This document shows, piece after piece, positions 1-14,613 of a stretch of 64,000 nucleotides of DNA (positions within the stretch are counted from its first letter, which is position 1; each line of letters opens with the position of its first letter). Both the position numbers and the translations under genes were made by a program. Source of the stretch: a virus (lineage: Duplodnaviria; Caudoviricetes); the IMG/VR virus record IMGVR_UViG_3300033498_000048, positions 241,783-305,782 of that record. One strand, written 5' to 3'. A model generated the notes under the pieces. That model did not search any database. It had not been told where the DNA came from and worked only from the letters and a program-made list of their open reading frames with translations.

Positions 1-392
1 CTAATCCTCTGAATCACATAATTAAAAGTTTCTTGCCTATTCAAATTTAATATCTCATAAAATATTGTTATGTCATATGCGTTTCCATCTGGTAATAAAA
101 CAACCGTAACATCCATTACCTTAATTCTAGGTTCAACTGCACCAATTAACCATTCAATTCTTGATTTTAATGTCGATGCAATTAATACAGATGGATTCTC
201 AAATAACAATTCTTTGATGTAATTCTTATATTTGCTATTGAATGGAACATCCCATATTTCCCATAAAAATATCGTGCGTAAGCTCCGTCTAATTGCTTCT
301 TCATTTATTTTCGTTGTTATGTCTCCAGTTAATGGGTGTATCGTCAATGATAAATCTACATCACGATATATTATTAAATCTGTGTTTTTCAT
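1..392 (-). CDS. gp25: Baseplate wedge subunit gp25 (3' end runs off window)
   Basis: Not in ORF track; translated by hand from ATG 392: MKNTDLIIYRDVDLSLTIHPLTGDITTKINEEAIRRSLRTIF...ELLFENPS...EPRIKVMDV, the typical gp25 pattern; CATAAATA upstream at 424-431. Confidence 0.8.
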   Translation of the reverse strand, partial: MKNTDLIIYRDVDLSLTIHPLTGDITTKINEEAIRRSLRTIFLWEIWDVPFNSKYKNYIKELLFENPSVLIASTLKSRIEWLIGAVEPRIKVMDVTVVLLPDGNAYDITIFYEILNLNRQETFNYVIQRI

Positions 393-423
393 TTGGCATT
401 ATCTGGTTGTTATACTAATTTCA

Positions 424-431
424 TATTTATG
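424..431 (-). promoter_or_regulatory. T4-type late promoter variant (CATAAATA) for gp25
   Basis: Plus-strand tatttatg 31 bp upstream of the gp25 start. Confidence 0.45.
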
Positions 432-502
432 TGAATATAGTTGTTGACTAGGTATTTAATATTTTGTTATACTATTGACATTCAAATAGACTAGCTTATC
501 AG

Positions 503-802
503 GTGGGTGTTATGACAACTTCAAAAGAATTTTTAAAAGCTATAAAAACCGAAATGAAAAAAAATGGTGGAGATGATTGGTCGGCAATAAACAAAGTAAG
601 TTCCACAGTAAAACGTGGAGAAGAAGATGATTGGGATATTGCTAGACTGGCAATTATAGGATTAACATCAACACAAGCAGCACAAAAAGCTAAAGCAGCA
701 GCAAAAAGAATTGAGAAGGAATTTAATTCAAAAGAAGTTCAAGGCTATTTAAAAGTAATGCACGGCTCAAAAGATTTTTATTCTAATAACGCTGTAGCTT
801 AA
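503..802 (+). CDS. Hypothetical protein
   Basis: 99-aa ORF with phage-like composition; probable start at downstream ATG (MTTSKEF); TTGACT...TATACT promoter-like pair upstream. Confidence 0.55.
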   Translation: MGVMTTSKEFLKAIKTEMKKNGGDDWSAINKVSSTVKRGEEDDWDIARLAIIGLTSTQAAQKAKAAAKRIEKEFNSKEVQGYLKVMHGSKDFYSNNAVA

Positions 803-873
803 AAAACCCGTCCGTCAGTGGCATCATAACTGGTAAAAAACAAGTAAAATAATAATTTTTAGGAGTAAACATC

Positions 874-1059
874 ATGTCAATATTCATACCATCCATAAAA
901 CACACAAACGGTTACATTGAGGTTTTTACAACAAAATATGGTGGGATGTTCTTTGACGACATAGTACACGCATCACTATATGTAAGCGACCATACCAATG
1001 AATTTTGGCATTGCACATCAAAAGGAGTGGCTAAAAATAGAGCAAACGAAACTATTTAA
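874..1059 (+). CDS. Hypothetical protein
   Basis: AGGAG RBS upstream of ATG; 61 aa. Confidence 0.55.
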   Translation: MSIFIPSIKHTNGYIEVFTTKYGGMFFDDIVHASLYVSDHTNEFWHCTSKGVAKNRANETI

Positions 1060-1098
1060 AGCATTTTTTATTGAAGTTTAACATAAAGGAAATGTATC

Positions 1099-1263
1099 GT
1101 GGAAACATTTGAATATGTTGAAGGCTTTTTAGCAGCTAAAAATGATTTAATGTATGGTAGCAACCCATATCAAGACCCCGTAAAAAAATTGTCGTGGTCT
1201 AAAGGTCATAACGACTTTAGAGTAAAACAAAAAACAACAAAGTCGAAGAAAATAGCAAAATAA
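1099..1263 (+). CDS. Small protein resembling ribosome modulation factor (RMF-like)
   Basis: Not in track; GTG start with AAAGGA RBS; VETFEYVEGFLAAKNDLMYGSNPYQDPVKKLSWSKGHNDFRVKQK..., matching the RMF-like G-F-x-A...NPY...W-x-x-G pattern. Confidence 0.45.
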   Translation: METFEYVEGFLAAKNDLMYGSNPYQDPVKKLSWSKGHNDFRVKQKTTKSKKIAK

Positions 1264-1341
1264 GCAAACTAGTGATAGGTTTGCTTATTTGAATGGAAAT
1301 TGTATTCTGTCTAATACCAATCAAGCACACATAGCTCAAAA

Positions 1342-1776
1342 TTAAGGGCAAACAGCTCTCAGGATTCTCATTTGACCCGCAAGAATCTTGGGCGCACCAT
1401 CTCCATTGGAAACTGTTTTTGAAGTTGTAAGAAATGAAATATAATACAGATTTCCTGCTGTTGCTGCATCGTGTAACCCAGCCCCGACAATAGTTCCCCA
1501 ATTTGCGGAAGGAACACCGAAAACCAATTCTTGTAGGTTGCTATATTCAAGGTTAGCTCCAGATGGACCCTGCCAACCATTTGATGCTAATATTTGAACC
1601 CTAGCATAGTTAGTTCCAACAGTTGATACTTCAACTCCTCCAGTACCATCAAGTGACGGAGTTGAGGTGAATAGTGAAACCCACAACGATGTTGGAGGAG
1701 TGAATACGGGGGTATTCTTTAATAAGTAGTCCATAGACTTCTGATAATAAAAATTTGATGTGGTACTAGATGGCAT
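1342..1776 (-). CDS. Virion / tail-associated structural protein
   Basis: LWVSLFTSTP...GTGGVEVS...YARV...SN...F...ANWGTIVGAGLHDAATAGNL motif typical of phage tail-associated proteins; late promoter upstream. Confidence 0.65.
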   Translation of the reverse strand: MPSSTTSNFYYQKSMDYLLKNTPVFTPPTSLWVSLFTSTPSLDGTGGVEVSTVGTNYARVQILASNGWQGPSGANLEYSNLQELVFGVPSANWGTIVGAGLHDAATAGNLYYISFLTTSKTVSNGDGAPKILAGQMRILRAVCP

Positions 1777-1809
1777 TTTTTTTCTCCGTCATTAATAATA
1801 GTATTACTA

Positions 1810-1817
1810 TATTTATA
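1810..1817 (-). promoter_or_regulatory. T4 late promoter TATAAATA
   Basis: Exact match on minus strand 33 bp upstream of ORF 1776. Confidence 0.7.
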
Positions 1818-2446
1818 CAAACATTGACACGTTATATTTAATATTTTGGAGGTCCGATACGAGTTATTTAACAGAGGAAAGTTTGGGTTTACATTTGCAT
1901 GAAATGTTCGGTGTAGACTTTATACACAACAGAATAGTACAAAAATCGACCTGATTATAGGAATGACGCATTAAACCTAATAATTGAATTTGATGGATAT
2001 AGACATTTTAATTCTACTGAAGTGATAACTTTAAAGATTCTGTATATGTGTAAATTTAGGTTACACTATAGTAGTAAAGTCATACTGGTATTAAAACGTT
2101 CTTTGAAAATACTTCATAGCTCATGTTGTCTGGAACAACATCTTTTGTTAATTGTGAATAGTATTTCACCGAGTTGTACACTTTATATACACTATTCCAT
2201 TTACAGTTACAACTTTCATGTTTTTACCATCAGCACCTTTAAACATTTTAGTCCGAACGCTATTATTTGTTGACATTTGTATTATCTCCACGTTTCGTTT
2301 TAAGATTGGAATTACATTGTAGTGCTTATTTTACACTAAACATTAAAACGATGTCAAATTTATTTTATCTAAATTAATGGACGTGTATCAAGTTCGGGTT
2401 TAATCACATGGAACAGTTATCACCCCTTTGGAAATATGGTGAAATC

Positions 2447-2638
2447 TCATACTTGTTTACCATAATCAACATATCGTTGTTCTAAGTCAGATTCCCAATC
2501 TTTAATTGTTTCAACAAGTAAAGAATTATGACTTCTTTTGATGTCACGTTTTGCACCGTCAATTGCTTTAATAAGACCAGATTGTCTACGTTTTTCTTGG
2601 GCTATCAAATTAGCAATTTGTTGTTTGTTAGTTGTCAT
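2447..2638 (-). CDS. Hypothetical coiled-coil protein
   Basis: 63-aa ORF in minus-strand run. Confidence 0.5.
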   Translation of the reverse strand: MTTNKQQIANLIAQEKRRQSGLIKAIDGAKRDIKRSHNSLLVETIKDWESDLEQRYVDYGKQV

Positions 2639-2694
2639 GTTGTTTCCAGGTATTGTAATTGATTCAAGTTATTGGAACATATAATAAAGTACCA

Positions 2695-2883
2695 CTACTC
2701 CTCGAAATATTCGTTTTTAACCACATTGTGGACCAATTGTCTGTTGATTGCACGTTCACGCTGCCTTGATAATAACTTATTAATGGAGCAATAGGCTTGC
2801 TGTGATAACGGTCTACGAGACCATAAATCACGCCCTTGATGTTGCGTTTTTTGATTTCTATGGTGTAATGTCCTAGCCATCAA
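2695..2883 (-). CDS. Hypothetical basic protein
   Basis: 62-aa ORF, GGAG upstream. Confidence 0.5.
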   Translation of the reverse strand: MMARTLHHRNQKTQHQGRDLWSRRPLSQQAYCSINKLLSRQRERAINRQLVHNVVKNEYFEE

Positions 2884-2946
2884 GTTTTCTCCTAAATTAT
2901 TCGTTTTTTGTCAATTATAATTTGGTATAATGAAGCGTGGTTTCCA

Positions 2947-4479
2947 TCATTTGATTCTTTCTATCAAATTGATATATTCGGTTGTTTTGTTACCAACTAC
3001 TAATCCCTTTGTTCTATTGTATAACAACGGCATTACTGGTTCTAAACATTCAATAAGGAATAAAAATAATCTAAAACAATCCGAACATACTTCATGGCTA
3101 TTATCACTCAAATTCCAAGGTTTGTTGTTATCTATGTAACAATTGATAATGGTAGCATTACCTAATATTATTTTTATTGCCTCAGAGTATTTTAATTCTG
3201 TGTATTTATCGAATATGATTTGTCTATCATTAATTATATGTTCATAAAACACAGTATCAGATATTTCTGATAATTGACTACCGAACTTATTATTTAATAA
3301 CGCAATTGTTCGACTACCAATATTAATTAACTTTCCAATTAATTCATTGTTTATTTTAACAACAAAATCATCATAAGTAAAGTCTATATCATTAATAGTA
3401 TCATCCAATTTATAAGCAAAATAAAAACGTAATAATTCTGGGTCATACTTATCACCGAATTTCTTCCCTGTAATAAAAGAGCCTTTTGATTTACTCATTT
3501 TATTTTTATTAACGGTTAAAAATCCATGCGTTGCTAATTTTGTTGGTAATCTATAATTATTACCTTTTAGTATAGCTACCCAAAATAATGCGTGAAAGTA
3601 AATAATATCTTTACCTATAAATTGGATCAACTCAGTCGACTCTTCTCTCCAATCATTTTTATAATCCAGTCCGATGCCATCAAGATATTCCTTATGGCTT
3701 GAAATATATGCTATAGGAGCGTCAAACCACACATAAAAACATTTATCCAAATCTGGAATATCAAATCCAAAATATGGTTTATCCCTAGTCAAGTCCCAAT
3801 CAAGTAATGGCTCATCAAACCATTCTAATAATTTATCTTTTAATTGATTACTAATCGCTTTACTATCAATAAACTCCAATAAGGTATCTCTGAACGATTC
3901 AATGTTTAAGAAACAATGACTACTTGATTTGTTGATAATACTATGAGTGCTTTCTTTGACTACAATCGGATTAATCAAATCAATAGCAGAATAAACACTT
4001 TGGCAGTTGTCGCAACCATCACCCCATTGTGAATGACTCCCACATTTTGGGCATATCCCCTTGACTTCTCTATCAGATAAAAACTTCTTATCATACTCAT
4101 CAAATAATTGTTTTACTTCTTTTTCTATGATATATCCGTTTGCTTTTAACGTATTGAAAAAGTCAATAGTTAATTTTTCATTTTCTTTAGAATTTGTACT
4201 AGAGAAAATATCAAAATTTACACCAAATTTTTCTAAATCAAATAAATGTTCATTTCTAATCTTATCAATATAATCAACTTCTGATAAGTTTTCGTTTTGA
4301 GAGCTGATAGTAATTGCTGTTCCATGTGAATCGGACGCACATATAAAATCAACTTCATATCCATCTAATCGTTTAGCTCTAACAAAAATATCCGATTGGA
4401 TATATTCCAGTAAATGACCCAAATGAATATCACCATTTGCATAAGGCAATGCGCTGGTTACAACTATTTTATTTTTCAT
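2947..4479 (-). CDS. metG: Methionyl-tRNA synthetase (class I; lacks C-terminal tRNA-binding appendix)
   Basis: VTSALPYANGDIHLGH (HIGH), zinc knuckle CPKC...CDNC, YVWFDAPIAY, FIGKDIIYFH, KMSKSKG, DNNKPW; probable start MKNKIVV at 4479 (track extends to 4497). Confidence 0.95.
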   Translation of the reverse strand: MKNKIVVTSALPYANGDIHLGHLLEYIQSDIFVRAKRLDGYEVDFICASDSHGTAITISSQNENLSEVDYIDKIRNEHLFDLEKFGVNFDIFSSTNSKENEKLTIDFFNTLKANGYIIEKEVKQLFDEYDKKFLSDREVKGICPKCGSHSQWGDGCDNCQSVYSAIDLINPIVVKESTHSIINKSSSHCFLNIESFRDTLLEFIDSKAISNQLKDKLLEWFDEPLLDWDLTRDKPYFGFDIPDLDKCFYVWFDAPIAYISSHKEYLDGIGLDYKNDWREESTELIQFIGKDIIYFHALFWVAILKGNNYRLPTKLATHGFLTVNKNKMSKSKGSFITGKKFGDKYDPELLRFYFAYKLDDTINDIDFTYDDFVVKINNELIGKLINIGSRTIALLNNKFGSQLSEISDTVFYEHIINDRQIIFDKYTELKYSEAIKIILGNATIINCYIDNNKPWNLSDNSHEVCSDCFRLFLFLIECLEPVMPLLYNRTKGLVVGNKTTEYINLIERIK

Positions 4480-4547
4480 ATCTCTTTGTCCAAACATTAA
4501 CTCGTTATTTATTGTTAATAATAGCTTTAAAAATTTGCATTATTAAG

Positions 4548-4976
4548 CTAAGACTTAATTAATTTATCAATTATATTGGTAAATTCTGATATTTTATTGT
4601 CACAGTCAGTTACCACAGCTTTTTTATAATCTTCCAATCTAGCCATTACTCCATTCAATAATTCAACATACTTTAACACACATTCTTCACGATTATCAAA
4701 CACATAAACTGGATTACCAGTACGACTCTTATATCCAGTGTTATCGAATGGAGCGTGTATGGTTTTTGTCAGTTTGTCATTTTTTAATACAACAAAGTGA
4801 CAAGAAGAATAATAAATAGTTTTTTTAGATAACGAATTATCTTGTATCAAAACTTGAACTGGTAAAACATTTCTTGCTGCATTTATGATACTTAAATCGG
4901 TTTTTCTATAATCACATATCCAAACCTTTTCACCAGTCATTTTTCCACTGGTAATGTCTTCAATTTTAATTTGCAT
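4548..4976 (-). CDS. Hypothetical protein
   Basis: 142-aa ORF in minus-strand operon. Confidence 0.6.
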   Translation of the reverse strand: MQIKIEDITSGKMTGEKVWICDYRKTDLSIINAARNVLPVQVLIQDNSLSKKTIYYSSCHFVVLKNDKLTKTIHAPFDNTGYKSRTGNPVYVFDNREECVLKYVELLNGVMARLEDYKKAVVTDCDNKISEFTNIIDKLIKS

Positions 4977-5117
4977 TATTTACCACCAACTTTGGAGTTT
5001 GGTTAGTTAGAGACTTAGCACATTTTGATATTAAATCAACAGGTGTATTTCCAACTAGCGAAATGTAATCACAAATCCAAATATATTTACCCTGCTTATG
5101 TGTTGTGGTATCGCACA

Positions 5118-5477
5118 TTATTTAGTCCTATTACGAAGTTGCTTTAACCTAATTACTTCTAATTCAGCTTGTTTGATTTTACTATCAAGATTTTTTACTT
5201 GTTTCCTTGCAAGTTTATAATCGCGCATAATGTCAATATATTCACTATACAATTTTGACATAGTATCACTCATATTACTGTGGAACGGGTCGATAACCAA
5301 TCTATGTTCAAGATGTAGGTCAATATCTTTGTTGGTGTTTTGGATGAGTTTTGATGCAACAGACCCATCTTTAATGGCAGCTTCATACAACCTATATGCA
5401 AATCTCAACAACATTGCTAGCTTTTTATCAACCGTTTCTACGGATGTAACTCCTCTAATGGTTTGGGCTTTACTCAT
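5118..5477 (-). CDS. Hypothetical coiled-coil protein
   Basis: 119 aa, AAGGA RBS. Confidence 0.6.
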   Translation of the reverse strand: MSKAQTIRGVTSVETVDKKLAMLLRFAYRLYEAAIKDGSVASKLIQNTNKDIDLHLEHRLVIDPFHSNMSDTMSKLYSEYIDIMRDYKLARKQVKNLDSKIKQAELEVIRLKQLRNRTK

Positions 5478-5495
5478 ATCATTATCCTTTTTGTG

Positions 5496-5837
5496 TTAGT
5501 CTTCAATGTTCCAATTATCAATAAAGTTTAATATTACCTTAACGAAGTCTTTAGTTTCATTGTATCTAAAACTCCGTGCTTTAATAGCGTACTTAATATC
5601 CCGTACTAAATTGCTTGCATTGTGTTGGACTTCTTCAAGTAATTCAATTCGCTTTTCAAGTTTAGTAACCTCAGTTTGCACTTGCTCGAAATCTTCTAAT
5701 TTACCCTCTAATTCTTCAATCAAAGTACATTTCAATTGGTCTGGCAAATCTGCGTATTTGATGATTTCATCTATAGTGAAATTTACTGGCACATAAGTTG
5801 TCATGTCTATCCTAATTTTAAATATTGCACATTGCAC
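5496..5837 (-). CDS. Hypothetical coiled-coil protein
   Basis: Acidic coiled-coil ORF; probable start at MTTYVPV. Confidence 0.55.
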   Translation of the reverse strand: MQCAIFKIRIDMTTYVPVNFTIDEIIKYADLPDQLKCTLIEELEGKLEDFEQVQTEVTKLEKRIELLEEVQHNASNLVRDIKYAIKARSFRYNETKDFVKVILNFIDNWNIED

Positions 5838-6034
5838 AATAACAGTTTTCCAATAGCAGTCAGTTCAATACTTCCGAATGGACCCCTAATAATATAACCT
5901 TCTAATTCAAGTTGTTTTGCTTGTTTTATTGGCATTGTATAGCACGGAATATTACCTCTTTCCATCCCAGCTATTTGTTTTTTAAGATTTTTTATTGCTG
6001 ATTCAGTTGCCATGTGATTGACACTCGACTTCAC
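5807..6034 (-). CDS. Hypothetical protein
   Basis: 75-aa ORF, tightly packed with neighbours. Confidence 0.5.
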   Translation of the reverse strand: MKSSVNHMATESAIKNLKKQIAGMERGNIPCYTMPIKQAKQLELEGYIIRGPFGSIELTAIGKLLLCNVQYLKLG

Positions 6035-6230
6035 ATTGTTGTGCTAAAAAATATCTCAATTCTGCTGCAATTTTATCAGCAGGATAACCAAGATTCCTTA
6101 GCCTGTTAAATTCGGTCATTGCTGCGTGTGAGTCTATTGCTTCATCTAGCATTGTTTCAATTAAAATTTCTTTATTCGACATTACTATAACTCCATTTAA
6201 AAATATACTTGGATTAAACCGTAGTACCAC
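6003..6230 (-). CDS. Hypothetical protein
   Basis: Probable start MSNKEIL with GGAG RBS. Confidence 0.5.
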   Translation of the reverse strand: MVLRFNPSIFLNGVIVMSNKEILIETMLDEAIDSHAAMTEFNRLRNLGYPADKIAAELRYFLAQQCEVECQSHGN

Positions 6231-6312
6231 CCACTTTCATCTTGACTTGCCACCTTAAACCCAGTTTAACAAGCTCTTTTTTAATTCTTCTAGTTCATAT
6301 TTTGACATTATA

Positions 6313-6531
6313 TTATCCAGTAACTAACCTTGACATATCAGAAACTATTGCGTTATTGCGAATAAAATCAATAACATTGAATCTTTCGTTTGTGTCGTTA
6401 AATTCCAATGCGTCTTTACGATTAAAAGTCCAGTAAACCTTTAAACATACAATACTTTTGACATATTTATAAACAGCACCACCAATTCCATGCTCGTCTT
6501 TCTCCAACACAGCATAACCTATAATTGCCAT
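6313..6531 (-). CDS. Hypothetical protein
   Basis: 72 aa, AAGGTG RBS. Confidence 0.5.
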   Translation of the reverse strand: MAIIGYAVLEKDEHGIGGAVYKYVKSIVCLKVYWTFNRKDALEFNDTNERFNVIDFIRNNAIVSDMSRLVTG

Positions 6532-6620
6532 CTTATCACCTTTATTATTGTTAGCGTTTCAATATTTGTGTACTATAACATGATATACAGTCTTAACGCA
6601 AGCTTTTATTTTCAAGTTAA

Positions 6621-6628
6621 TATAAATA
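6621..6628 (+). promoter_or_regulatory. T4 late promoter TATAAATA heading the 6665-8465 operon
   Basis: Exact match in divergent intergenic gap. Confidence 0.75.
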
Positions 6629-6664
6629 AATGTATCAATATGATTATTTTAAGGGGAACTACAA

Positions 6665-6838
6665 ATGGAAGGACAATGGCTTGGAGGTAAGGGTTCAACA
6701 ACTAGACCTATGCAAGTAAACCGACAACAGTTTGAAGATAACTGGAACAAGATTTTCAACAAGAAACTGGATAATGCGAATAAATTAATTCCAGTAAATG
6801 AAACCATAGTGGAGATTGTAACAAATGACACAGTATAA
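6665..6838 (+). CDS. Small conserved-looking phage protein
   Basis: Not in track; MEGQWLGGKGSTTRPMQVNRQQFEDNWNKIF..., 57 aa, AAGGGG RBS. Confidence 0.55.
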   Translation: MEGQWLGGKGSTTRPMQVNRQQFEDNWNKIFNKKLDNANKLIPVNETIVEIVTNDTV

Positions 6839-7076
6839 AACATTTAAATCCTTTTGTGAGTCTGTAACAGCGTTGCCTATCTATTTTCTATGTGAAAAGT
6901 GTAAAGAATCAGGTATTCAGGAGTCTGATGAATTTGATATGGAGACTAAAACCTCTAGGCAAGAATATATTACAAAGGGACAAGATAAAATATTTTTAAA
7001 GAAAGTTTGTTATGAATGCAAATCTGAAAGTGGTGTAGACGAGAATTATTTAAAAGGGATACAATATAGTGGTTAA
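6825..7076 (+). CDS. Zinc-ribbon-like protein with capsid-targeting-like leader
   Basis: N-term YKTFKSFCE; CEKC...CYEC pairs. Confidence 0.55.
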   Translation: MTQYKTFKSFCESVTALPIYFLCEKCKESGIQESDEFDMETKTSRQEYITKGQDKIFLKKVCYECKSESGVDENYLKGIQYSG

Positions 7077-7671
7077 TGTTAAAAACATTAGGGTAAAATC
7101 ATTTAATGAATATTTAATGGAAAACAGTCCAATAATTAGAACTGAGTTAGACAAAGAAATACATTCTAACACAGCAACAAGCCAATTAAATGATATTCCA
7201 ATTCCATCAATGAAAGATGCAAAAAGTGGAGATTATAAAAAAAGCAGAATTAAAATAAATGGACTAATCATTGATATTGAAAATCCGTATGGTTCAGTTA
7301 GAAAAGGCATTAGCTCAAATGGCGAATCGTGGGAAATTACGTTATCAGATAATTATGGTGAAATTAAGGGGTATGATGCTGCTGATGGAGATTATTTAGA
7401 TATTTTCATTCGTCCACATATGACACAAAAACAAGCAGATAATTTAAATGTCATTTATGTGATAGACCAATTGGATCCAACTACACATGGATTTGATGAA
7501 CATAAAGTCGTATTTGGGTATGAAACAATCGAGGAATCTAAACGTGCATATCTAGCCAATTATAAATCAAATTGGACTGGATTAGGATATATCACTCCAT
7601 TAACTATGACGATGTTTAAATATTGGATTAAAAATGAAGACTTAACACAACCATTAGTTTGGGGTAAATAA
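7069..7671 (+). CDS. Inorganic pyrophosphatase-like (InPase) domain protein, putative internal virion protein
   Basis: IDIENPYGSVRKG...W...NYGEIKG..AADGDYLDIF...VIDQ...FDEHKVVFGY...AYLANY is the polyvalent-protein InPase pattern; KSFNEYLME leader. Confidence 0.8.
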   Translation: MVNVKNIRVKSFNEYLMENSPIIRTELDKEIHSNTATSQLNDIPIPSMKDAKSGDYKKSRIKINGLIIDIENPYGSVRKGISSNGESWEITLSDNYGEIKGYDAADGDYLDIFIRPHMTQKQADNLNVIYVIDQLDPTTHGFDEHKVVFGYETIEESKRAYLANYKSNWTGLGYITPLTMTMFKYWIKNEDLTQPLVWGK

Positions 7672-8052
7672 ATGTTTAAATCATTCAATGACTTCATACG
7701 ATTAGAAGATACGAGCTTTCATTCAATAATGGCAAGGAACATAAAACCCACCAAACAAAAAACAGTTGATTTTGATGATATTAGCACTGGTTCAACCGTT
7801 AGATTAGTTGATATTGGAAATTACTTTTTATTAACTGGATTAGAAACACCTCCAGAAAATAGGGGTAAAGGTGGTGCTAAAAAAGTTATGCAACAGGCAA
7901 TTCAATATGCGATTGATAACGAAAAGAACATAGAATTATCGGTTATTCCTGACGATGATACAGACACTGAAACCTTAATAAAATTGTATTCTAGTTTTGG
8001 ATTTAGAAAAACAGGACAACCACATAACCATATGCGTTATATTACAATATGA
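7672..8052 (+). CDS. GNAT acetyltransferase, putative internal virion protein
   Basis: PPENRGKGGAKKVMQQAI (acetyl-CoA motif A), LIKLYSSFGF; MFKSFNDFIRLE leader. Confidence 0.8.
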   Translation: MFKSFNDFIRLEDTSFHSIMARNIKPTKQKTVDFDDISTGSTVRLVDIGNYFLLTGLETPPENRGKGGAKKVMQQAIQYAIDNEKNIELSVIPDDDTDTETLIKLYSSFGFRKTGQPHNHMRYITI

Positions 8053-8465
8053 AATCATTTAAAGAATATACAAACAATCCGATATTATATCACGGAACAA
8101 CATCAAACTTCGATTTTGATAAAGGTTTAATGGCAGGTGGAAATAAACAAACAACGTCCAACTTTAATGCCAGTAATGGTGAAATTTGGCTAACTTCAAA
8201 TAGGGAAGTTGCGTTTGAGTATGCTATGATTGCATGGAAAACACTACAAAACTTTTCATTAACGCCGATTTTGATACAAGTTGATATTGATGTTAGCTTA
8301 TCAGCAGACCAACCTATAGAACATGACCAAGTAGCGTTTTGTTTTGAATTAGATGTTATTCCAAAAAGTAAACTAAAGATGGTAAAGTTGACTCAAGCAG
8401 AATTAGCTAATTTCAAAAAACGATATGACCGAGAACTTAAAAATGGAAAATCAAAATTCAATTGA
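8049..8465 (+). CDS. ADP-ribosyltransferase-fold protein, putative internal virion protein
   Basis: ILYHGT...IWLTSNREVAFEYA pattern of ART-fold enzymes; MKSFKEY leader. Confidence 0.6.
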   Translation: MKSFKEYTNNPILYHGTTSNFDFDKGLMAGGNKQTTSNFNASNGEIWLTSNREVAFEYAMIAWKTLQNFSLTPILIQVDIDVSLSADQPIEHDQVAFCFELDVIPKSKLKMVKLTQAELANFKKRYDRELKNGKSKFN

Positions 8466-8520
8466 TTTTCGTATGGTGTTTGTGTTATAGTACATAAAAC
8501 ATCATACTAATCACAACATT

Positions 8521-8754
8521 ATGAAATCAAAACTAACCCAAGCTAAAGAATTATTTGACACAGGAAATTTGAATGGATGTTTAAAGATAGTTAAGACTTT
8601 TAGGTTAAGTTTAACTAAAGATGATTTGAAGGTGGTTTCCAGAACATATGAAATGCTGACAGGAAACCACAATTTTTACAATTCATTGGGCTTTGATGTG
8701 GACACTGAATTAGCTAAAGCTAACCAAATTTTGACCACAGTATTTAAATTGTGA
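8521..8754 (+). CDS. Hypothetical protein
   Basis: 77 aa downstream of TTGATT-N18-TATAGT promoter-like element. Confidence 0.55.
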   Translation: MKSKLTQAKELFDTGNLNGCLKIVKTFRLSLTKDDLKVVSRTYEMLTGNHNFYNSLGFDVDTELAKANQILTTVFKL

Positions 8755-8991
8755 TTATTTGTCAACTTTATTTTCAATGAACTTTTGTACAGCTTTAGGT
8801 GCGAATGCTGCTAATAAGAACCCAAATGTCAAATATAATCCAACATCTGAATTGCTAGTGATGTGAACAATCGACATTTTCAAGGTTAAATATCCGAAAA
8901 CGATTGATGCGATTAATGAAATAAACGACATCAGCCTCATTGAACTGTGGTTTCCGTTATCTTCTTGGAAGAATCCAATCTTTCTATACAT
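8755..8991 (-). CDS. Small two-TM membrane protein (holin-like)
   Basis: SSMRLMSF followed by two hydrophobic helices and a charged C-terminus. Confidence 0.55.
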   Translation of the reverse strand: MYRKIGFFQEDNGNHSSMRLMSFISLIASIVFGYLTLKMSIVHITSNSDVGLYLTFGFLLAAFAPKAVQKFIENKVDK

Positions 8992-9037
8992 AAATAGAGT
9001 TCCGTTAATATATTATATAATTTTATTATTTATTATA

Positions 9038-10237
9038 TTAACTATTTAACTTTTGAAAAAATTGCAACAAATCTTCTTGTAATACTGAACATGGAATAGG
9101 ATATTCAATATTATCAAGAAAATTGAGTTTAATATCTTGATTACAATCTGGTATAACTAAATCGAATAGTTTTCCAGCCAATACATAATCGAAATATTTA
9201 AATTCCAATGTATAATCAATCCTACCTTTACGCAATAGGGCATCATCTAACTTAGTGTGGAAGTTGCTAGTCATTATAACTATAACATCTTCTTTACTAT
9301 ACAATCCGTCCAACACATTCAATAGTGTAGATAAACTAACTGAATTGGTTAGACCAGCATTAGTTGAATTAATGTCCCGTTTTAATACACTATCACACAC
9401 GGCATCAATGTCTTCTAACAAAACAATTGAATCAGATGGAATATCAATAAACGCTGTAATAATTGACGAGTCAGTTAATGTTTTCAAATTGATTGAATAA
9501 ATTGATTTTTTATATAATGATGCTAATGCTAACACTAAACTCGTTTTACCAGTTCCAGGTGGACCAGTAAACAAATATCCCCTTTTATATAAAATTCCTC
9601 TATCTAAGTACCATTGTTTATTAATGTAGAAGTGTTCTATATCATCAAGCAACGATTGCTTATCATTATCTGGTAATACAATTGATTTAATATTGCGATA
9701 GTTCCTAGATGCAATTATTCGCCATTCAGTAACATATGTGTGTATTGAAACTTGATTTCGACTTTTAGTTAAAACAGCAGCAACGAAATCATCAACTATA
9801 TTTGGATCCCTACGAAATAGAAAATACATTGTTATATCTTCAGGAGCTTTAAACATTCCAGTAGTTCGATTCGCCAATACTTTATAAAACAAAACTGGAC
9901 GGTGTTTATACCAAAACCAATGTAACCCAGTTGAAAATGTAATATTACCAACATTTCCATGATAACCTGAAACATAATAATCATACAATTGAAGCCTTCT
10001 TGTATTAGATAGTAATCTATTTTTTTCAATCCACAAACAAATATCATCAAACATATCGGTATTATTCCTAACCAACACTTCAACAGATAAAAAGTAAATT
10101 ACCATTCGTTTTATTTGTGTTGGAATACCTTTTAACACATAAATCGCATATCCACATAGTGTAGCAACAACAGCACCAGAACTAAACATATTTGTTTGTA
10201 CTTGATAGACTATCCATTCATAAACTTGTATCACCAT
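9038..10237 (-). CDS. BCS1-like AAA+ ATPase with N-terminal TM anchor
   Basis: Hydrophobic N-term; WYLDRGILYKRGYLFTGPPGTGKTS (Walker A), IVLLEDID (Walker B), LSTLLNVLDG, LDDALLRKGRID. Confidence 0.9.
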   Translation of the reverse strand: MVIQVYEWIVYQVQTNMFSSGAVVATLCGYAIYVLKGIPTQIKRMVIYFLSVEVLVRNNTDMFDDICLWIEKNRLLSNTRRLQLYDYYVSGYHGNVGNITFSTGLHWFWYKHRPVLFYKVLANRTTGMFKAPEDITMYFLFRRDPNIVDDFVAAVLTKSRNQVSIHTYVTEWRIIASRNYRNIKSIVLPDNDKQSLLDDIEHFYINKQWYLDRGILYKRGYLFTGPPGTGKTSLVLALASLYKKSIYSINLKTLTDSSIITAFIDIPSDSIVLLEDIDAVCDSVLKRDINSTNAGLTNSVSLSTLLNVLDGLYSKEDVIVIMTSNFHTKLDDALLRKGRIDYTLEFKYFDYVLAGKLFDLVIPDCNQDIKLNFLDNIEYPIPCSVLQEDLLQFFQKLNS

Positions 10238-10791
10238 TAGTAATTCCGTTTCTTTATTTTAATAATATCAATATCATTACCACACGATACGATGTGATTT
10301 CCAGCTGCTAATATTGCCATTTTTAATTTATCATTTGTATTCAATTGTGTTTCAATATTTGTTAATACAAATAAAGCTCCTTCGGCAGTGATACCTCCAC
10401 TACCAATTGCAGTGTAGGGTGAATTTAGTTCACATACTGACCAATCATCTTGGATTTCAAATATCTTTGACCGATAACAAATTATATAGTTACCACAACG
10501 CCCTTTACTATCGTTTTCAGTATATTTGTGTAATTCCAAACACCTGCGAATTTCTGGAATTAAATCTTGTATCATATAATCAATTGGGTTGCCTCTTGTG
10601 TCTTTTGGTAGTTCTAAATGGTGGCTAATAATTTGTGTTGCTCTTAATGAACCCATAGAGCCTATTAACATTTTTCCTATTTTAAATACCTTTGAATGAA
10701 CTAAAGTTGACCCAACATGACCATTTGATATTAGTCGGTCTCCACCTAAATATAAGTGTGTTTTGTCCATTAATGCTGCTATACACGTCAT
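10237..10791 (-). CDS. HslV/proteasome-beta-like Ntn-hydrolase peptidase
   Basis: MTCIAA (Thr nucleophile after Met removal), LGGDR, SKVF, TAIGSGG. Confidence 0.8.
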   Translation of the reverse strand: MTCIAALMDKTHLYLGGDRLISNGHVGSTLVHSKVFKIGKMLIGSMGSLRATQIISHHLELPKDTRGNPIDYMIQDLIPEIRRCLELHKYTENDSKGRCGNYIICYRSKIFEIQDDWSVCELNSPYTAIGSGGITAEGALFVLTNIETQLNTNDKLKMAILAAGNHIVSCGNDIDIIKIKKRNY

Positions 10792-10820
10792 ATAATCTCC
10801 TTATAATTGTTTTAAAATAA

Positions 10821-10875
10821 TAGCACTTGGAACAGTCTTATAATTAACTAACTGTTCCAAGTGCTAACCTGTTGA
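10821..10875. repeat. Palindromic repeat family, single unit (locus 1)
   Basis: Perfect 16-bp IR tagcacttggaacagt (10821-10836) / actgttccaagtgcta (10851-10866), then acctgttga. Confidence 0.9.
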
Positions 10876-10878
10876 TAT

Positions 10879-12012
10879 TTACTTAATTAGTCCACGAATT
10901 AAAGATTCAAACTTACGAATTTCTAGCTTTCTCAAATAAGCTGGAATATCTGTAATAGCACCCTTTTGATATGCAAAAACTATTCCAGATAAGTTTTGAT
11001 TATCTTTCATTTTTAAGCCAAGTTCTTTTCCAGTTAATGTTTTAGTGTATTCAATAAGCGTGTCTAGTTTCTGTTGTAATCGCTTGTACGCTGTTTTTAT
11101 GGTTGAGTGTAGCACTGTATGCTCTTTGTACTTATCGAGCGATAGGAACGATTTGTGTGAGTTTGTACGCACTATTTCACACATTCTACGGAAATTGTCT
11201 TTATCTATTTGTGATTTTCGTTTGATGTATTCCTCATTTGATATGAATTTAGAAGTCCGCAACAGATTAATATTGTCGTATTGTGGACTCTTTATTTTCA
11301 ACCGATTAAAATTAGAATCACACGCAACATAACCTTCCATCTTAATTGGGTCAACCTCATTTAATTCCAATAAAATATCATTCAAGGTTGATTTTTTACC
11401 AGTTGCACATTCCCATGAAATACACAATTCACGTTTAGCACGTTCAATTGACACCTCTTTAAAAGTTTTAAGATTGCGAACACCAATAAGGGTAATGTTA
11501 GGTTCTGATACTTTAACCAAAAAGTCTTCTGATGGACGTTCCATTTCAAACATATAACAATGGTCTGTAAACTTTGGTAATTCGTATTTTTTCAACTTCC
11601 AAACTTTCCAGAAATAATCATTCATTGTAATATCTAAACCCTTAATTTGTCCAGACGCATCAGGCATACCTTTAGATGCTACATTCCATTTTCCATCATA
11701 CCAATACAATGTCATCAATGAACCATCTAACTTTTTCCAATATGTACAATCATCAAAATCGAAAGTTTGTTTTCCCATTGGATTATAATCACTAAACCTA
11801 GTAAACGGAAATGATACAACCTTCATTGTATTAGTATCAATTATTAATCCCCTACAATTATTAGTTATGTCATTCTTTGGTGTTTCCAATTGGTCATACA
11901 TCAATTGTACTAAATTTGGATATAATATATGTCTACGCATTTTTAATGAATATGTAGCAACTAATGTTTCCAATGAATTTTTAATAATGTAATCAATAAC
12001 GTTTAACATCAT
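10879..12012 (-). CDS. rnlA: RNA ligase, T4 Rnl1 family
   Basis: CRGLIID, FPFTRF, KKLDGSL (motif I KxDG), MFEM, EGYV, LKIKS. Confidence 0.85.
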   Translation of the reverse strand: MMLNVIDYIIKNSLETLVATYSLKMRRHILYPNLVQLMYDQLETPKNDITNNCRGLIIDTNTMKVVSFPFTRFSDYNPMGKQTFDFDDCTYWKKLDGSLMTLYWYDGKWNVASKGMPDASGQIKGLDITMNDYFWKVWKLKKYELPKFTDHCYMFEMERPSEDFLVKVSEPNITLIGVRNLKTFKEVSIERAKRELCISWECATGKKSTLNDILLELNEVDPIKMEGYVACDSNFNRLKIKSPQYDNINLLRTSKFISNEEYIKRKSQIDKDNFRRMCEIVRTNSHKSFLSLDKYKEHTVLHSTIKTAYKRLQQKLDTLIEYTKTLTGKELGLKMKDNQNLSGIVFAYQKGAITDIPAYLRKLEIRKFESLIRGLIK

Positions 12013-12184
12013 AACCTCGTTTAGTTTGTTTAGGAAGGAACAGCACCTAAGCTATTACAGTCTTTGTAAAATATCTCAATGCGTTTTTTATTTGCATAAT
12101 CATCTGCAACGTATAATAACAATACTACACACAAATTAGTTCTACCAACTCTTGTTTTCTATATACCACATAACACCTCTTTAA

Positions 12185-12409
12185 TTAAAGTCTTCTAAAG
12201 TTGGAACATTTAACTGCGTGTGTTCCATCCAAGTAATGCTTTAGAACTGGCTTCATTTTTTTAAATTCTAAATGACTACAATTCACAATACTATCAATAC
12301 AATTACAACACATTTCACCATCTGGAAAATACTCAGGTAGTGTTCTATCAATGTAATTACCATCTCCAATTGTTTGATTACCCTCAAACACAAATTTAAG
12401 TTTTCTCAT
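12185..12409 (-). CDS. Hypothetical Cys-rich protein
   Basis: 74 aa directly downstream of consensus early promoter. Confidence 0.55.
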   Translation of the reverse strand: MRKLKFVFEGNQTIGDGNYIDRTLPEYFPDGEMCCNCIDSIVNCSHLEFKKMKPVLKHYLDGTHAVKCSNFRRL

Positions 12410-12438
12410 AATGTAATTCCACGAATATCAATTTAGTA

Positions 12439-12467
12439 ATTATAAATGTACACACTAACAATGTCAA
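12439..12467 (-). promoter_or_regulatory. Consensus sigma70-type early promoter
   Basis: TTGACA-N17-TATAAT on minus strand; -35 box abuts the first repeat arm at 12468. Confidence 0.8.
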
Positions 12468-13046
12468 TCAATAAGTTAGCATTAAGTAATTAATAATAGC
12501 GTCCAAGTGCTATCTTATTGATATTATTAGTGTATGACTACTCCAACTAAATCAACGACTTAGCACTTGCATAGAGTATTAGTTATATAACCGTTCTAAA
12601 TGCTAACCTATTGATTTTGTTACATATCACCTAAAATATTAAGAATCAACAAGTTAGCACTTGTAGCCATTAGGTAATTAATAACACCATCCAAGTGCTA
12701 AGTCATTGATTTTGTATAATTGACAAGAATGTATGGATTTAACCGTAAATCAACAAGATAGCACTTGCAGCTTGGTATTAATTATATAACTGTTGCAAGT
12801 GCTAACTTATTGATTTTGTTATTGGCTATTAAAACAATTAAGAATCAAGTGGTTAGCACCTATTGGTATCAAGTGGTTACTATTGTCAATAAATTGAGTA
12901 AAATGACCTAGTAATTACAGTTACACTACAAACAATAGGTTAGCACTTGCAGTGTGTTATTAATTACTTAATGGCTACAAGTGCTAACTTATTGTTTTAT
13001 ATACAACACATAAACACACCTAAATCAATGACTTAGCACTTGGACG
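12468..13046. repeat. Palindromic repeat array (locus 2): five two-armed units plus two half-sites
   Basis: Units at 12468-12521, 12552-12614, 12646-12709, 12750-12813, 12932-12995; halves at 12845 and 13025; period about 85-105 bp. Confidence 0.95.
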
Positions 13047-13069
13047 GATTAGCTGAAATTGGTAAACAA

Positions 13070-13077
13070 CATAAATA
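13070..13077 (+). promoter_or_regulatory. Late promoter variant CATAAATA
   Basis: 30 bp upstream of ATG 13108. Confidence 0.5.
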
Positions 13078-13107
13078 CCATTTTAGTTAAATTAGGGGAT
13101 ACAGATT

Positions 13108-13687
13108 ATGTTACTAAGTTTTAATGAATATTTGTTATCTGAGGCATACATTAACCTGATAGGTGATGACGCTAAAAAACAAAACTACGTTGATGCTGTT
13201 TGGAATATGTTACAAATATCTTATGAGAGGATTGGTGGAATACATGATTATGGGTTTAAAGATAAACAGAATATGATTACCAATATAAATTTTTGGAAAT
13301 AGCTACTAAAGATGGTAAACCTGTAGCAGTTGCAATGTATAAAGATTCTGGAGGCAGAAAAAATTAGTTGCGTATGGAACTGATAAGTCCACAGTAGGAA
13401 AAGCAAAGATAGTTGATATTATTAAGGCAGATATGACCAGAAGTTATATGGAACTATCTGGTGCAACTGTGACAATATTAATGAATAACATTGAGTGGAA
13501 TCAATTGAAAGATTATACATTCACTCCAGAGCAAGCTGAAAAATTGCTAGGAAAGGATATTACACCAATAAGTCAACTACCATCAATTCCATAAGATGCG
13601 AAATTAACGTTGGCATTGTTTGAATATGGGTACATAAGAAAGATTGGTAGTGATTTACATTTTAAAGTTATGTTTGGTAAAATCTAG
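13108..13687 (+). pseudogene. Interrupted putative internal virion protein
   Basis: MLLSFNEYLLSE leader; adding one A at about 13299 and one in the A-run 13358-13363 gives a continuous reading (...FWK-IATKDGKPVAVAMYKDSGGRK-KLVAYGTD...YIRKIG...KVMFGKI) with one in-frame TAA at 13592. Confidence 0.65.
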
Positions 13688-14208
13688 CATCTGTCCGATG
13701 GTATATTCCAGTGTTTCATAAAAGTCTTTAATGATATTTAATACGGGTGAAATGTTACTAAACCTATGGTTTCCACCATTAAATACAATTGTTCTAAATG
13801 AATTGCTATATCTGTTGTTTGTAGTAATTGAATTAATTAACTCATCACCTAGGTTTAGTAATAAAAGACCAATTCCAGTTGATTTAAATTGGTCTTTATA
13901 AAATTGTATCTGGTATGCACAATTCAAACAAAGTAATATTAGGTTCAATTGCTGGATTTAACATAACAAATGGAATATCTAAAATATTACCTAATCTGTT
14001 TGCATAGAATCCCACCCATTGAAGTTCCGACCAACAAGTCGGGCTTCATGTCTATTATTGCAGATTCAAGCATTGTTGTAATGTGTTCTATGGAATTAGA
14101 ATAATCTATTGTAACTCCACAAACATCTCCAATAGCCATTAAAGACTTCACTTTATCGCTACTTTGGTCATAAAACGAACCATAGCCATGAATGTACATT
14201 ATTTTCAC
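13655..14208 (-). pseudogene. Frameshifted YqiA/UPF0227-type alpha/beta hydrolase (esterase)
   Basis: MYIHGYGS...VGTSMGG; removing one G at 14011-14013 gives GGFYANRLG...LNPAIEP; a second shift (13898-13945) leads to LLLLNLGDEL...GGNHRF in track ORF 13655-13948. Confidence 0.8.
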
Positions 14209-14260
14209 TTAAAACTCGATGTTAGTTGACATTTTAACTACCTTTATAATTTAAGTCAAA

Positions 14261-14452: not shown

Positions 14453-14613
14453 TCATATTACTCCTTTAATTACTACGATTAATTTATCTGTGTATTTTGT
14501 TATTTCATTTTGTATTAAATATTCCCGCTGTTCGATGTTGGTACATCTTTCACAAATACTTAACACTTTACGAGTTAATTCATTTTTTAATGATTGCAAA
14601 TATTCAGTATCAT

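What the first reader, a model, noticed from the sequence alone, without database searches (positions are those of the whole stretch)
2947..4479. Phage-encoded methionyl-tRNA synthetase
Seen: all class I MetRS motifs are intact, with a proteobacterial-type zinc knuckle; the protein ends after the anticodon-binding helices with no dimerisation/tRNA-binding appendix. Established: aminoacyl-tRNA synthetases are rare in phages and found mainly in very large genomes. Inference: it sustains initiation under host shut-off, bypasses toxins targeting MetRS or tRNA-Met, or charges phage tRNA-Met encoded elsewhere.
Basis: partly seen in the sequence, partly recalled or inferred. Interest (0 to 1): 0.7.

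Follow-up and report, generated by a model that had tools for sequence, protein, structure and literature searches.

The report
Jumbo phage carries minimal methionyl-tRNA synthetase
A complete 306-kb phage genome from a microbial mat encodes an intact, stripped-down copy of the enzyme that loads methionine onto tRNA. Such genes are already known from huge phages, so this is a well-documented new example and not a new kind of system.

Summary
Window 2947-4479 (-) is a 510-aa open frame (alternative start at 4497) that is a bona fide E. coli-type methionyl-tRNA synthetase (MetRS). It has HIGH, KMSKS, a single four-cysteine zinc knuckle, and the methionine-pocket and anticodon-reading residues. 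Its model overlays E. coli MetRS at TM 0.94. It stops two residues after the conserved C-terminal L..R peptide and has no tRNA-binding/dimerisation domain.

The gene is truly phage-encoded. It lies inside a complete 305,782-bp T4-like jumbo phage, among phage genes. It recurs on a separately built contig of the probable source sample. Its composition and codon usage match the phage.

Its closest relatives are only 42-47% identical. It sits in the proteobacterial MetRS clade on a long branch, so no donor can be named. It is the only synthetase found with eight family models.

The genome also carries an initiator-type tRNA(CAU), a tRNA-Ile2-like tRNA(CAU) and a peptide deformylase. Freshwater relatives of the phage include a form in which the MetRS gene and its upstream ORF are cleanly absent, so the gene is accessory.

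Huge-phage synthetases are already described (PMC7162821). This is a new member of a known kind, of moderate interest. The scan had flagged this same stretch before in other windows (e1-5321542, e1-5321533).

The parts
2947..4479 (-). MetRS coding sequence, 510 aa plus stop (an in-frame ATG at 4497 would add 6 residues)
   Evidence: The independent gene call P0002 uses the 4479 start.
4414..4425 (-). HIGH signature (H19-L-G-H22, equal to E. coli H21-H24)
   Evidence: Alignments (invariant H19, G21, H22).
4003..4053 (-). Single zinc knuckle, C143-P-K-C146 ... C156-D-N-C159 (equal to E. coli C145/148/158/161)
   Evidence: The isolated knuckle peptide 1mea also matches residues 141-166 of the 516-aa frame.
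3487..3501 (-). KMSKS loop (K327-S331)
3115..3324 (-). Anticodon-reading part of the helical bundle (N386, R390 ... N446, D450, P454, W455, equal to E. coli N391, R395, N452, D456, P460, W461)
   Evidence: (alignment to 1qqt).
2950..2967 (-). C-terminal peptide L-I-E-R-I-K holding the invariant L505 and R508; the protein ends here, with no tRNA_bind domain
   Evidence: alignment A1; NF001100 profile matched only to position 501 of 676.
4548..4976 (-). 142-aa ORF of no known family directly upstream; it is absent together with MetRS in freshwater relatives
   Evidence: no Pfam hit; joints 4586->4978 and 4604->4992.
2880..4977 (.). About 2.1-kb variable cassette (MetRS plus the 142-aa ORF), replaced by about 43 nt in related phage DNA from freshwater metagenomes
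   Evidence: One 350-nt contig in X2/X3, and a similar one in X4, covers 2737-2879 (about 95% identical). It then runs through 16 nt, 24 nt resembling 4563-4586, and 3 nt, and continues with 4978-5142 (2 differences in 165 nt).

Best explanation
The gene encodes a catalytically competent, probably monomeric MetRS belonging to the phage itself. It activates methionine with ATP (HIGH/KMSKS Rossmann core, zinc-knuckle insertion). It selects tRNAs by their CAU anticodon (N391/R395/W461-type pocket) and forms Met-tRNA.

During infection it most likely adds charging capacity for CAU tRNAs. These would be the host's tRNAs and the phage's own initiator-type tRNA(CAU); the phage tRNA-Ile2-like species would also qualify while its C34 is unmodified. 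The effect would be to keep initiation and Met decoding going when host gene expression is shut off. The phage peptide deformylase then processes the formyl-Met ends.

The missing C-terminal domain means a minimal enzyme without the avidity and dimerisation module. The gene is an old, codon-adapted resident of a variable cassette and is dispensable in some close relatives.

Shown: identity, fold, conserved residues, phage location, partner tRNAs, cassette polymorphism. Inferred: enzymatic activity, monomeric state, which tRNAs it charges, and the benefit to the phage.
For: Identity and intactness:
- establish family, residues and fold.
- 122 of 147 columns that are invariant in 17 bacterial homologues are kept, although overall identity is only 42-47%; most of the 25 changes are conservative.
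- The three differences listed inside the gene that lie in fragments 82-92% identical from other metagenomes are all synonymous (3064 F>F, 3097 S>S, 4375 A>A). This is a very small sample.

Phage residence.

Partner tRNAs:
- tRNA A (genome c22447-22519) has A11-T24 and G12-C23. PMC1635315 calls these complete discriminators of tRNA-fMet.
- tRNA A also has G2-C71, C3-G70, G4-C69, A73, G29-C41, G30-C40 and a weak A1-U72 pair. That paper finds a weak 1-72 pair in 1.5% of tRNA-fMet genes.
- tRNA B (c26125-26197) has C4-G69, C5-G68 and U12-A23, and the lower three pairs and loop of its anticodon arm are identical to E. coli ileX.
- AUA makes up 33% of the phage's Ile codons.

Other points:
- An intact 131-aa peptide deformylase carries the GxGxAAxQ, EGCLS and HExxH motifs.
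- MetRS is the only aaRS detected with PF00133, PF09334, PF00579, PF00749, PF00750, PF00152, PF00587 and PF01409.
- The C-terminal domain promotes dimerisation and tRNA binding and is absent from the monomeric crystallised E. coli form (PMC13215547; PDB 1qqt).
- Precedent: huge phages carry up to 15 aaRS together with tRNAs and PDF (PMC7162821), and mimivirus MetRS has been functionally characterised (PMC6375957 citing Abergel 2007).
Against: - No activity or expression data exist.
- 25 of 147 otherwise invariant positions differ (for example W32F, P55A, P135S, H286Q, P301V), so altered kinetics or specificity cannot be excluded.
- The protein is 28-43 residues shorter than the short bacterial forms (538-553 aa), and the last five residues of the model are low-confidence.
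- A close relative lacks the gene, so it is not essential.
- tRNA A departs from the conserved R29G30G31/Y39C40Y41 rule at pair 31-39 (U.G). It also has a paired 1-72, so it may serve as an elongator or in both roles.
- No phage formyltransferase or TilS gene was found. Formylation and lysidine formation would depend on the host, which is unknown.
Confidence: 0.78

Rival explanations
1. Counter-defence bypass. The phage MetRS, with the phage initiator-type tRNA, is kept because it is insensitive to host toxins or inhibitors that block initiator tRNA or MetRS during abortive infection. It would then be a private replacement and not simply extra capacity.
For: - MetRS is the sole aaRS kept.
- It is highly diverged from all cellular copies.
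- It co-occurs with an atypical initiator-type tRNA (A1-U72, U31.G39).
- The window holds a T4 Rnl1-like RNA ligase. An earlier unchecked scan note describes a wider tRNA-repair toolkit.
- The gene sits on a variable cassette, like many defence and counter-defence genes.
Against: No toxin, target or host is known. Nothing in the sequence shows resistance. All substrate-contacting residues are canonical. The neighbouring genes have no recognisable defence-related domains.
Confidence: 0.1
2. Neutral passenger. A captured cellular gene persists without benefit and is on its way to loss.
For: It is absent from a close freshwater relative together with the upstream ORF. 25 of 147 invariant columns are changed and the protein is unusually short.
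Against: - The 510-codon frame is open with every catalytic and anticodon residue intact at only about 45% identity.
- Codon usage is fully phage-like.
- Homologous fragments 82-92% identical persist in other metagenomes, and the listed differences in them are synonymous.
- Three other complete 184-186-kb phages also keep short MetRS genes.
Confidence: 0.07
3. Non-translational use. Met-tRNA or Met-AMP made by this enzyme feeds an aminoacyl-tRNA-dependent transferase, for example a GNAT-type enzyme that modifies DNA, protein or cell wall.
For: Phage Mom uses Gly-tRNA to modify DNA (PMC13219725). A weak GNAT-like ORF lies at 7672-8052 (+), about 3 kb away.
Against: The GNAT hits are mostly below the Pfam cut-offs and lie on the other strand. 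No co-variation with MetRS was seen. The enzyme keeps full tRNA anticodon recognition and co-occurs with translation-related tRNAs and PDF.
Confidence: 0.03
4. Host contamination or a chimeric assembly places a bacterial metG inside a phage contig.
For: Many 'viral' database records with MetRS hits are really E. coli metG in host flanks.
Against: - The gene lies more than 59 kb from the record's end and has phage genes on both sides.
- A separately built contig of the probable source run has the same arrangement.
- GC, GC3 and codon usage equal the phage's.
- No cellular protein is more than 47% identical.
- Relatives show clean gene-boundary presence or absence within phage flanks.
Confidence: 0.02

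Closest known systems
E. coli MetRS monomeric core (PDB 1qqt, 1pfu; M547/M551 fragments)
   Same: Same domain order: Rossmann fold, CP insertion with one four-Cys zinc knuckle, KMSKS stem, helical anticodon bundle, and a C-terminal peptide returning to the core. All catalytic, methionine-pocket and anticodon residues are conserved. TM 0.94, rmsd 2.1 A.
   Different: Only 38-41% identical. It is naturally truncated, whereas the E. coli core is cut from a 676-aa dimeric protein. It has a shorter linker before the C-terminal peptide and a 6-residue deletion after the PW motif. It is encoded by a phage.
Aminoacyl-tRNA synthetases of huge phages (Al-Shayeb et al. 2020, PMC7162821)
   Same: An aaRS in a phage genome above 200 kb, alongside tRNA genes and a peptide deformylase. 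It is related to but distinct from cellular copies.
   Different: Here MetRS is the single aaRS found, in a T4-like phage with 17 detected tRNAs. It is in minimal form and lies on a cassette that a close relative lacks.
Short MetRS of three complete 184-186-kb phages in IMG/VR (loci L030, L031, L036)
   Same: Short-form (554-557 aa) E. coli-type MetRS without tRNA_bind, in complete phage genomes. A tree constraining them with this protein into one clade is not rejected and scores 26.3 log-likelihood units better than the unconstrained quick search (p-AU 0.82).
   Different: Only 38-43% identical. No shared rare residues. The neighbours differ, apart from an RNase H gene shared elsewhere in the genomes. 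The tail protein tested is absent from them. Long-branch attraction could explain the grouping.
Mimivirus MetRS (Abergel et al. 2007, as cited in PMC6375957)
   Same: A virus-encoded MetRS; the mimivirus enzyme has been functionally characterised.
   Different: It comes from a giant virus of eukaryotes, a different viral realm and host.

Membership tests
Methionyl-tRNA synthetase (class Ia aaRS; Pfam PF09334, TIGR00398) | Score above the curated family thresholds | tested here: met
   PF09334 scores 417.5 bits against a cut-off of 20.1; TIGR00398 scores 437.1 against 336.35.
Methionyl-tRNA synthetase (class Ia aaRS; Pfam PF09334, TIGR00398) | HIGH and KMSKS ATP-binding signatures | tested here: met
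   HLGH and KMSKS are present and aligned to E. coli 21-24 and 332-336.
Methionyl-tRNA synthetase (class Ia aaRS; Pfam PF09334, TIGR00398) | Methionine pocket (E. coli L13, Y15, D52, W253, A256, P257, Y260, H301, W305) | tested here: met
   All are identical in the pairwise alignment to 1qqt. The roles of these residues are recalled from the E. coli MetRS structural literature, not re-derived here.
Methionyl-tRNA synthetase (class Ia aaRS; Pfam PF09334, TIGR00398) | CAU-anticodon recognition residues (E. coli N391, R395, W461 with P460, N452, D456) | tested here: met
   All are conserved.
Methionyl-tRNA synthetase (class Ia aaRS; Pfam PF09334, TIGR00398) | Overall MetRS fold | tested here: met
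   Model pLDDT is 90.4. Foldseek's top 17 hits are all MetRS; the best is TM 0.94.
Methionyl-tRNA synthetase (class Ia aaRS; Pfam PF09334, TIGR00398) | Methionine activation and tRNA-Met aminoacylation | not testable with these tools
   Needs an enzyme assay or complementation.
Full-length dimeric gammaproteobacterial MetG (NCBIfam NF001100 equivalog) | C-terminal tRNA_bind (PF01588) dimerisation domain; score at or above 587 bits | tested here: not met
   It scores 562 bits. The profile is matched only over positions 3-501 of 676, and no PF01588 hit was found. It is therefore a core-only MetRS, not a full-length MetG equivalog.
Single-knuckle zinc MetRS (E. coli type) | One CXXC...CXXC knuckle with four cysteines in the CP insertion | tested here: met
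   CPKC...CDNC aligns to C145/148/158/161. Zinc binding itself was not tested.
Huge-phage translation genes (PMC7162821) | Encoded in a bona fide phage genome above 200 kb that also carries tRNAs | tested here: met
   305,782 bp, rated complete, with structural and replication genes and 17 tRNAs.
Huge-phage translation genes (PMC7162821) | Related to, but distinct from, the host's own synthetase | tested here: inconclusive
   The host is unknown. The protein falls in the clade holding all labelled Pseudomonadota MetRS (SH-aLRT 99). Its nearest tree neighbours are AT-rich tiny-genome endosymbionts, a likely composition artefact.
Bacterial initiator tRNA-fMet (criteria of PMC1635315), for phage tRNA A | A11-T24 and G12-C23 in the D stem; G2, C3, G70, C71 | tested here: met
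   Alignments A2 and A3 with E. coli metZ, metT and ileX; criteria.
Bacterial initiator tRNA-fMet (criteria of PMC1635315), for phage tRNA A | C1xA72 mismatch, or a weak 1-72 pair, which occurs in 1.5% of cases | tested here: met
   A1-U72. This is the rare weak-pair variant.
Bacterial initiator tRNA-fMet (criteria of PMC1635315), for phage tRNA A | R29 G30 G31 / Y39 C40 Y41 in the anticodon stem | tested here: not met
   G29-C41 and G30-C40 are present, but pair 31-39 is U.G. I therefore call it initiator-type and do not file it as a proven tRNA-fMet.

The most novel reading that the evidence does not exclude
MetRS, the atypical initiator-type tRNA(CAU) (A1-U72, U31.G39) and the peptide deformylase form a phage-private initiation channel. 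Its MetRS part is carried on a mobile cassette. The channel keeps phage translation starting when the host's initiator tRNA or MetRS is disabled by shut-off or by an abortive-infection toxin, and the tRNA's unusual pairs make it a poor target for such toxins.
Probability: 0.12. Interest if true: 0.7.

Novelty: new member of a known kind. Interest (0 to 1): 0.36.

Why it matters
Phage-encoded synthetases are catalogued but, as far as I found, not characterised biochemically. PMC6375957 notes that the single synthetase of Bacillus phage G lacks experimental confirmation.

This case is a compact test object. It is a naturally minimal 510-aa MetRS and the only synthetase found in the genome. A candidate cognate initiator-type tRNA sits in the same genome. 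A natural variant lacking the gene exists among relatives.

It could show whether phages add charging capacity, run a private initiation route, or evade tRNA-directed defences. The natural truncation also marks the smallest E. coli-type MetRS core seen among the roughly 200 homologues aligned here. None of this changes the class: it is an expected kind of gene in a huge phage.

Tried and rejected
- Megablast of window 1-20000 against 50,697 phage records: no match.
- Single-protein scans of IMG/VR with MetRS and with the AAA neighbour: no close relatives.
- RNA evidence: no RNA holder listed, so nothing can be said on expression.
- Most 'phage' records with MetRS hits (Escherichia, Listeria, Staphylococcus and similar) and most IMG/VR hits are cellular metG. 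The E. coli-derived ones have the full 677-680-aa E. coli sequence. I rejected them as phage relatives.
- Search for short fragments of close relatives in the protein collection: none above 64% identity. dN/dS could therefore not be computed. The 82-92% identical DNA fragments seen are not retrievable as sequences.
- Phylogeny: the careful search did not finish in time and quick mixture-model trees were used. The sister relation to P0173 (a 15-kb contig, GC 23%, sharing only MetRS with this phage) joins two long branches.
- The next neighbours are endosymbiont or reduced-genome bacterial chromosomes. I rejected them as donors.
- Cluster look-up gave no organism names.
- Shared rare residues with the other phage MetRS: none.
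- blastn of the two CAU tRNAs against E. coli genomes: no match. Reference tRNAs were fetched by coordinates instead.
- Promoter and terminator scan: not clearly above shuffled expectation (41 against 32.2 +/- 5.3; 2 against 2.1).
- No long repeats flank the cassette.
- No fmt, TilS or methionine aminopeptidase gene in the phage.
- Not tested: AlaRS, GlyRS alpha/beta, CysRS-specific and class I LysRS models.
Full report
**Observation.** The only long frame across 2947-4497 is on the minus strand (516 aa). (510 aa). An independent gene call in the public protein collection uses this same start (P0002), and homologues begin to align there. Both ATGs have only weak purine-rich stretches upstream, so I adopt 4479 and note 4497 as an alternative.

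Family scores are unambiguous. Pfam tRNA-synt_1g gives E 6e-125 over profile positions 1-390 of 391. TIGR00398 gives 437 bits against a cut-off of 336. The full-length equivalog NF001100 falls short (562 against 587) only because its last 175 positions, the C-terminal domain, have no counterpart.

The alignment to E. coli MetRS (1qqt) shows these residues conserved:
- HLGH (21-24) and KMSKS (332-336)
- D52
- the single knuckle C145/C148/C158/C161
- W253/A256/P257/Y260/H301/W305
- the anticodon residues N391, R395, N452, D456, P460 and W461

An AlphaFold2 model built on 18 sequences is confident (pLDDT 90.4, pTM 0.89). It superposes on E. coli MetRS at TM 0.94 and 2.1 A.

**The C-terminus.** In alignment A1 the phage protein keeps the invariant L505 and R508 of the peptide that follows the helical bundle, and it stops two residues later. 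Compared with bacterial short forms (538-553 aa) it also lacks about 19 linker residues and a 6-residue loop after the PW motif. It has no PF01588 tRNA_bind domain. That domain promotes dimerisation and tRNA binding in some MetRS (Crepin 2002, as cited in PMC13215547). The crystallised E. coli core without it is monomeric (same paper; PDB 1qqt). A monomeric minimal enzyme is therefore the natural inference, though I did not test it.

**Is it really phage DNA?** Yes.
- The window is bases 241783-305782 of a 305,782-bp IMG/VR record rated 100% complete. A 127-bp terminal overlap is consistent with a circular assembly.
- Surrounding genes are phage genes: Gp80 fibre, gp25-like protein, inorganic pyrophosphatase, BCS1-like AAA ATPase, T4 Rnl1-like ligase, DNA ligase, primase, and tail and baseplate proteins.
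- A 67.9-kb Logan contig of the run that probably yielded this DNA, built separately, carries the identical protein in the same neighbourhood (run X1).
- The gene's GC (28.9%), GC3 (22.4%) and synonymous codon usage (r 0.88 to the pooled phage ORFs) lie within the range of the phage's other genes.
- No cellular protein exceeds 47% identity in searches of 5.8 billion clustered proteins and 1.84 billion cluster representatives. The protein is its own 50% cluster.

**Origin.**
- The best 80 species genomes are almost all Gammaproteobacteria, including Burkholderiales, at 39-46% identity.
- In mixture-model trees the phage protein lies inside a well-supported clade (SH-aLRT 99) that holds every labelled proteobacterial sequence. 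It sits on a long branch of 1.5-2.1 substitutions per site.
- Its apparent neighbours are short, compositionally skewed sequences. Context look-ups show most of these to be chromosomes of reduced-genome, very AT-rich bacteria. One is a 274-kb genome that reads TGA as Trp, and the loci have GC of 19-30%. I read this grouping as a composition or long-branch artefact, and the donor stays unresolved.
- Three complete 184-186-kb phage genomes in IMG/VR also carry short MetRS genes. Forcing them into one clade with this protein gives a better likelihood than the free quick search (by 26.3 units; p-AU 0.82).
- Against a common origin, they share no rare residues and no conserved neighbours. A single old capture by phages is possible but not shown.

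**Selection.**
- 122 of 147 columns invariant in 17 bacterial homologues are retained. Most of the 25 changes are conservative.
- Contigs from freshwater metagenomes of other studies include fragments 82-92% identical to parts of the gene, including its poorly conserved 3' end (2934-3331).
- The three differences listed in those fragments are synonymous. This is consistent with purifying selection, but three sites are too few to prove it.

**Genome context of methionine and translation.** ARAGORN finds 17 tRNAs at 17.7-29.4 kb of the genome, two of them with a CAU anticodon. I compared both with E. coli metZ, metT and ileX fetched from NC_000913. I applied the discriminators of Silva et al. 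2006 (PMC1635315).

tRNA A has features of an initiator:
- A11-T24 and G12-C23, called complete discriminators of tRNA-fMet in that paper.
- G2-C71, C3-G70, G4-C69 and A73.
- The initiator's variable loop, plus G29-C41 and G30-C40.
- A1-U72, the weak-pair variant seen in 1.5% of tRNA-fMet genes.

It departs from the rule at pair 31-39, which is U.G where the paper finds G31 and Y39 conserved. Similar D arms occur in other phage tRNA-Met genes, and the phi-pp2 and crAss-like examples also share the U31.G39 pair. I therefore call it initiator-type, with its role (initiator, elongator or both) open.

tRNA B has C4-G69 and C5-G68, which E. coli TilS requires (same paper). It also has U12-A23, and the lower three pairs and loop of its anticodon arm are identical to ileX. 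AUA is 33% of Ile codons in the phage. It is best read as tRNA-Ile2. The general rule, from established knowledge of this tRNA class, is that it is a MetRS substrate until C34 is modified.

The phage also encodes an intact 131-aa peptide deformylase. It has no formyltransferase, TilS or methionine aminopeptidase. No other aaRS was found with eight catalytic-core models.

**Presence/absence polymorphism.** I laid contigs of freshwater metagenome runs on window 1-9000. Flanking genes appear at 95-99% identity. One contig form, seen in X2/X3 and similarly in X4, joins position 2879 to about 4563-4586 and then to 4978. That removes the MetRS gene and the 142-aa upstream ORF. The joined form keeps a GGAG box and a TTG start in frame for the downstream gene; this is my reading of the 16 inserted letters.

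The short middle piece (24-30 nt) is below the tool's comfort limit. However, the two outer flanks of the X2/X3 contig (143 nt and 165 nt) are long and nearly identical to the phage. MetRS is therefore an accessory gene on a 2.1-kb variable cassette. I cannot tell gain from loss.

**Mechanism and comparison.** The most likely function is ordinary MetRS chemistry in the service of phage translation. The enzyme would supply extra or host-independent charging of CAU tRNAs, including the phage's own initiator-type tRNA, with PDF acting downstream.

This is the pattern described for huge phages, which carry tRNAs, up to 15 aaRS and PDF (PMC7162821). It has a functional precedent in mimivirus MetRS (PMC6375957). 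It is a member of the MetRS family by every sequence and fold criterion tested. It is not a full-length MetG equivalog, because the C-terminal domain is absent.

The rivals are a counter-defence bypass, a neutral passenger, a non-translational use of Met-tRNA, and contamination. I weigh each in its own section. Contamination is effectively excluded.

**Verdict.** This is a new member of a known kind. Its added value lies in four things: the minimal architecture, MetRS being the only synthetase found, the initiator-type partner tRNA, and the natural MetRS-minus relative. Together they make a clean experimental system. The biology is not surprising, so interest is moderate.

Earlier first-reader notes of this scan flagged the same stretch in other windows (e1-5321542, e1-5321533).

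Noticed in passing
L134:5448-5520 (genome c22447-22519; outside the window): Besides its initiator-type D stem, the initiator-type tRNA(CAU) has a T loop reading TTTGATT (T at position 56, where C is nearly universal) and a 7-nt D loop without GG. An A19-U56 pair may replace G19-C56. Phage tRNA-Met genes with similar D arms occur in Vibrio phage phi-pp2 and a crAss-like phage, which also share the U31.G39 pair. The related hit in a 735-kb phage has a different anticodon loop and is not a CAU tRNA in the alignment.
   Followed up: partly
window 4520-4550 and 4965-4990 (-): The motif ATAATGCAAATT occurs at the start of the 142-aa ORF and again just after its stop, where it opens an 11-codon mini-ORF. 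It looks like a duplicated gene start left by insertion or deletion of the ORF.
   Followed up: no
window 10879-12012 (-): T4 Rnl1-like RNA ligase (phrog_562, E 8e-26). It fits the tRNA-repair toolkit described in an earlier unchecked scan note.
   Followed up: no
window 7069-8052 (+): An inorganic pyrophosphatase (PF18823, E 5e-42) is followed by a weak GNAT-like ORF whose hits are mostly below the Pfam cut-offs. Pyrophosphatase would pull aaRS and other PPi-releasing reactions forward, but I did not test a link to MetRS.
   Followed up: no
L005:1516-1911 (-) (genome about 116.2-116.6 kb): Intact short phage peptide deformylase (131 aa) with all three motifs.
   Followed up: partly
L030, L031, L036 (IMG/VR 3300045988 contigs, 184-186 kb, complete): Other large phages carry a short MetRS next to genes with a Ro60 vWA domain, a NAPRTase and an AAA ATPase, and share an RNase H with this phage.
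   Followed up: partly
L008, L009, L023, L033 and GenBank hits H3-H6: Several IMG/VR 'viral' records, and probably the roughly 108-kb 'Escherichia phage' records hit, contain a full-length E. coli-type metG. Its N-terminus contains the MTQVAKKILV... start, preceded by a few extra residues in the read-out frame. Either host flanks are included in prophage calls, or phage-plasmids carry metG. This is worth a check because it inflates counts of phage MetRS.
   Followed up: no
L131 (Logan contig, 15 kb, GC 23%): The tree sister P0173 (519-aa short MetRS) sits among ORFs with phage-family hits (DHH phosphoesterase, Band_7-like protein, vWA) and a HipA-like gene. It may be another large AT-rich phage or plasmid with its own minimal MetRS.
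   Followed up: partly
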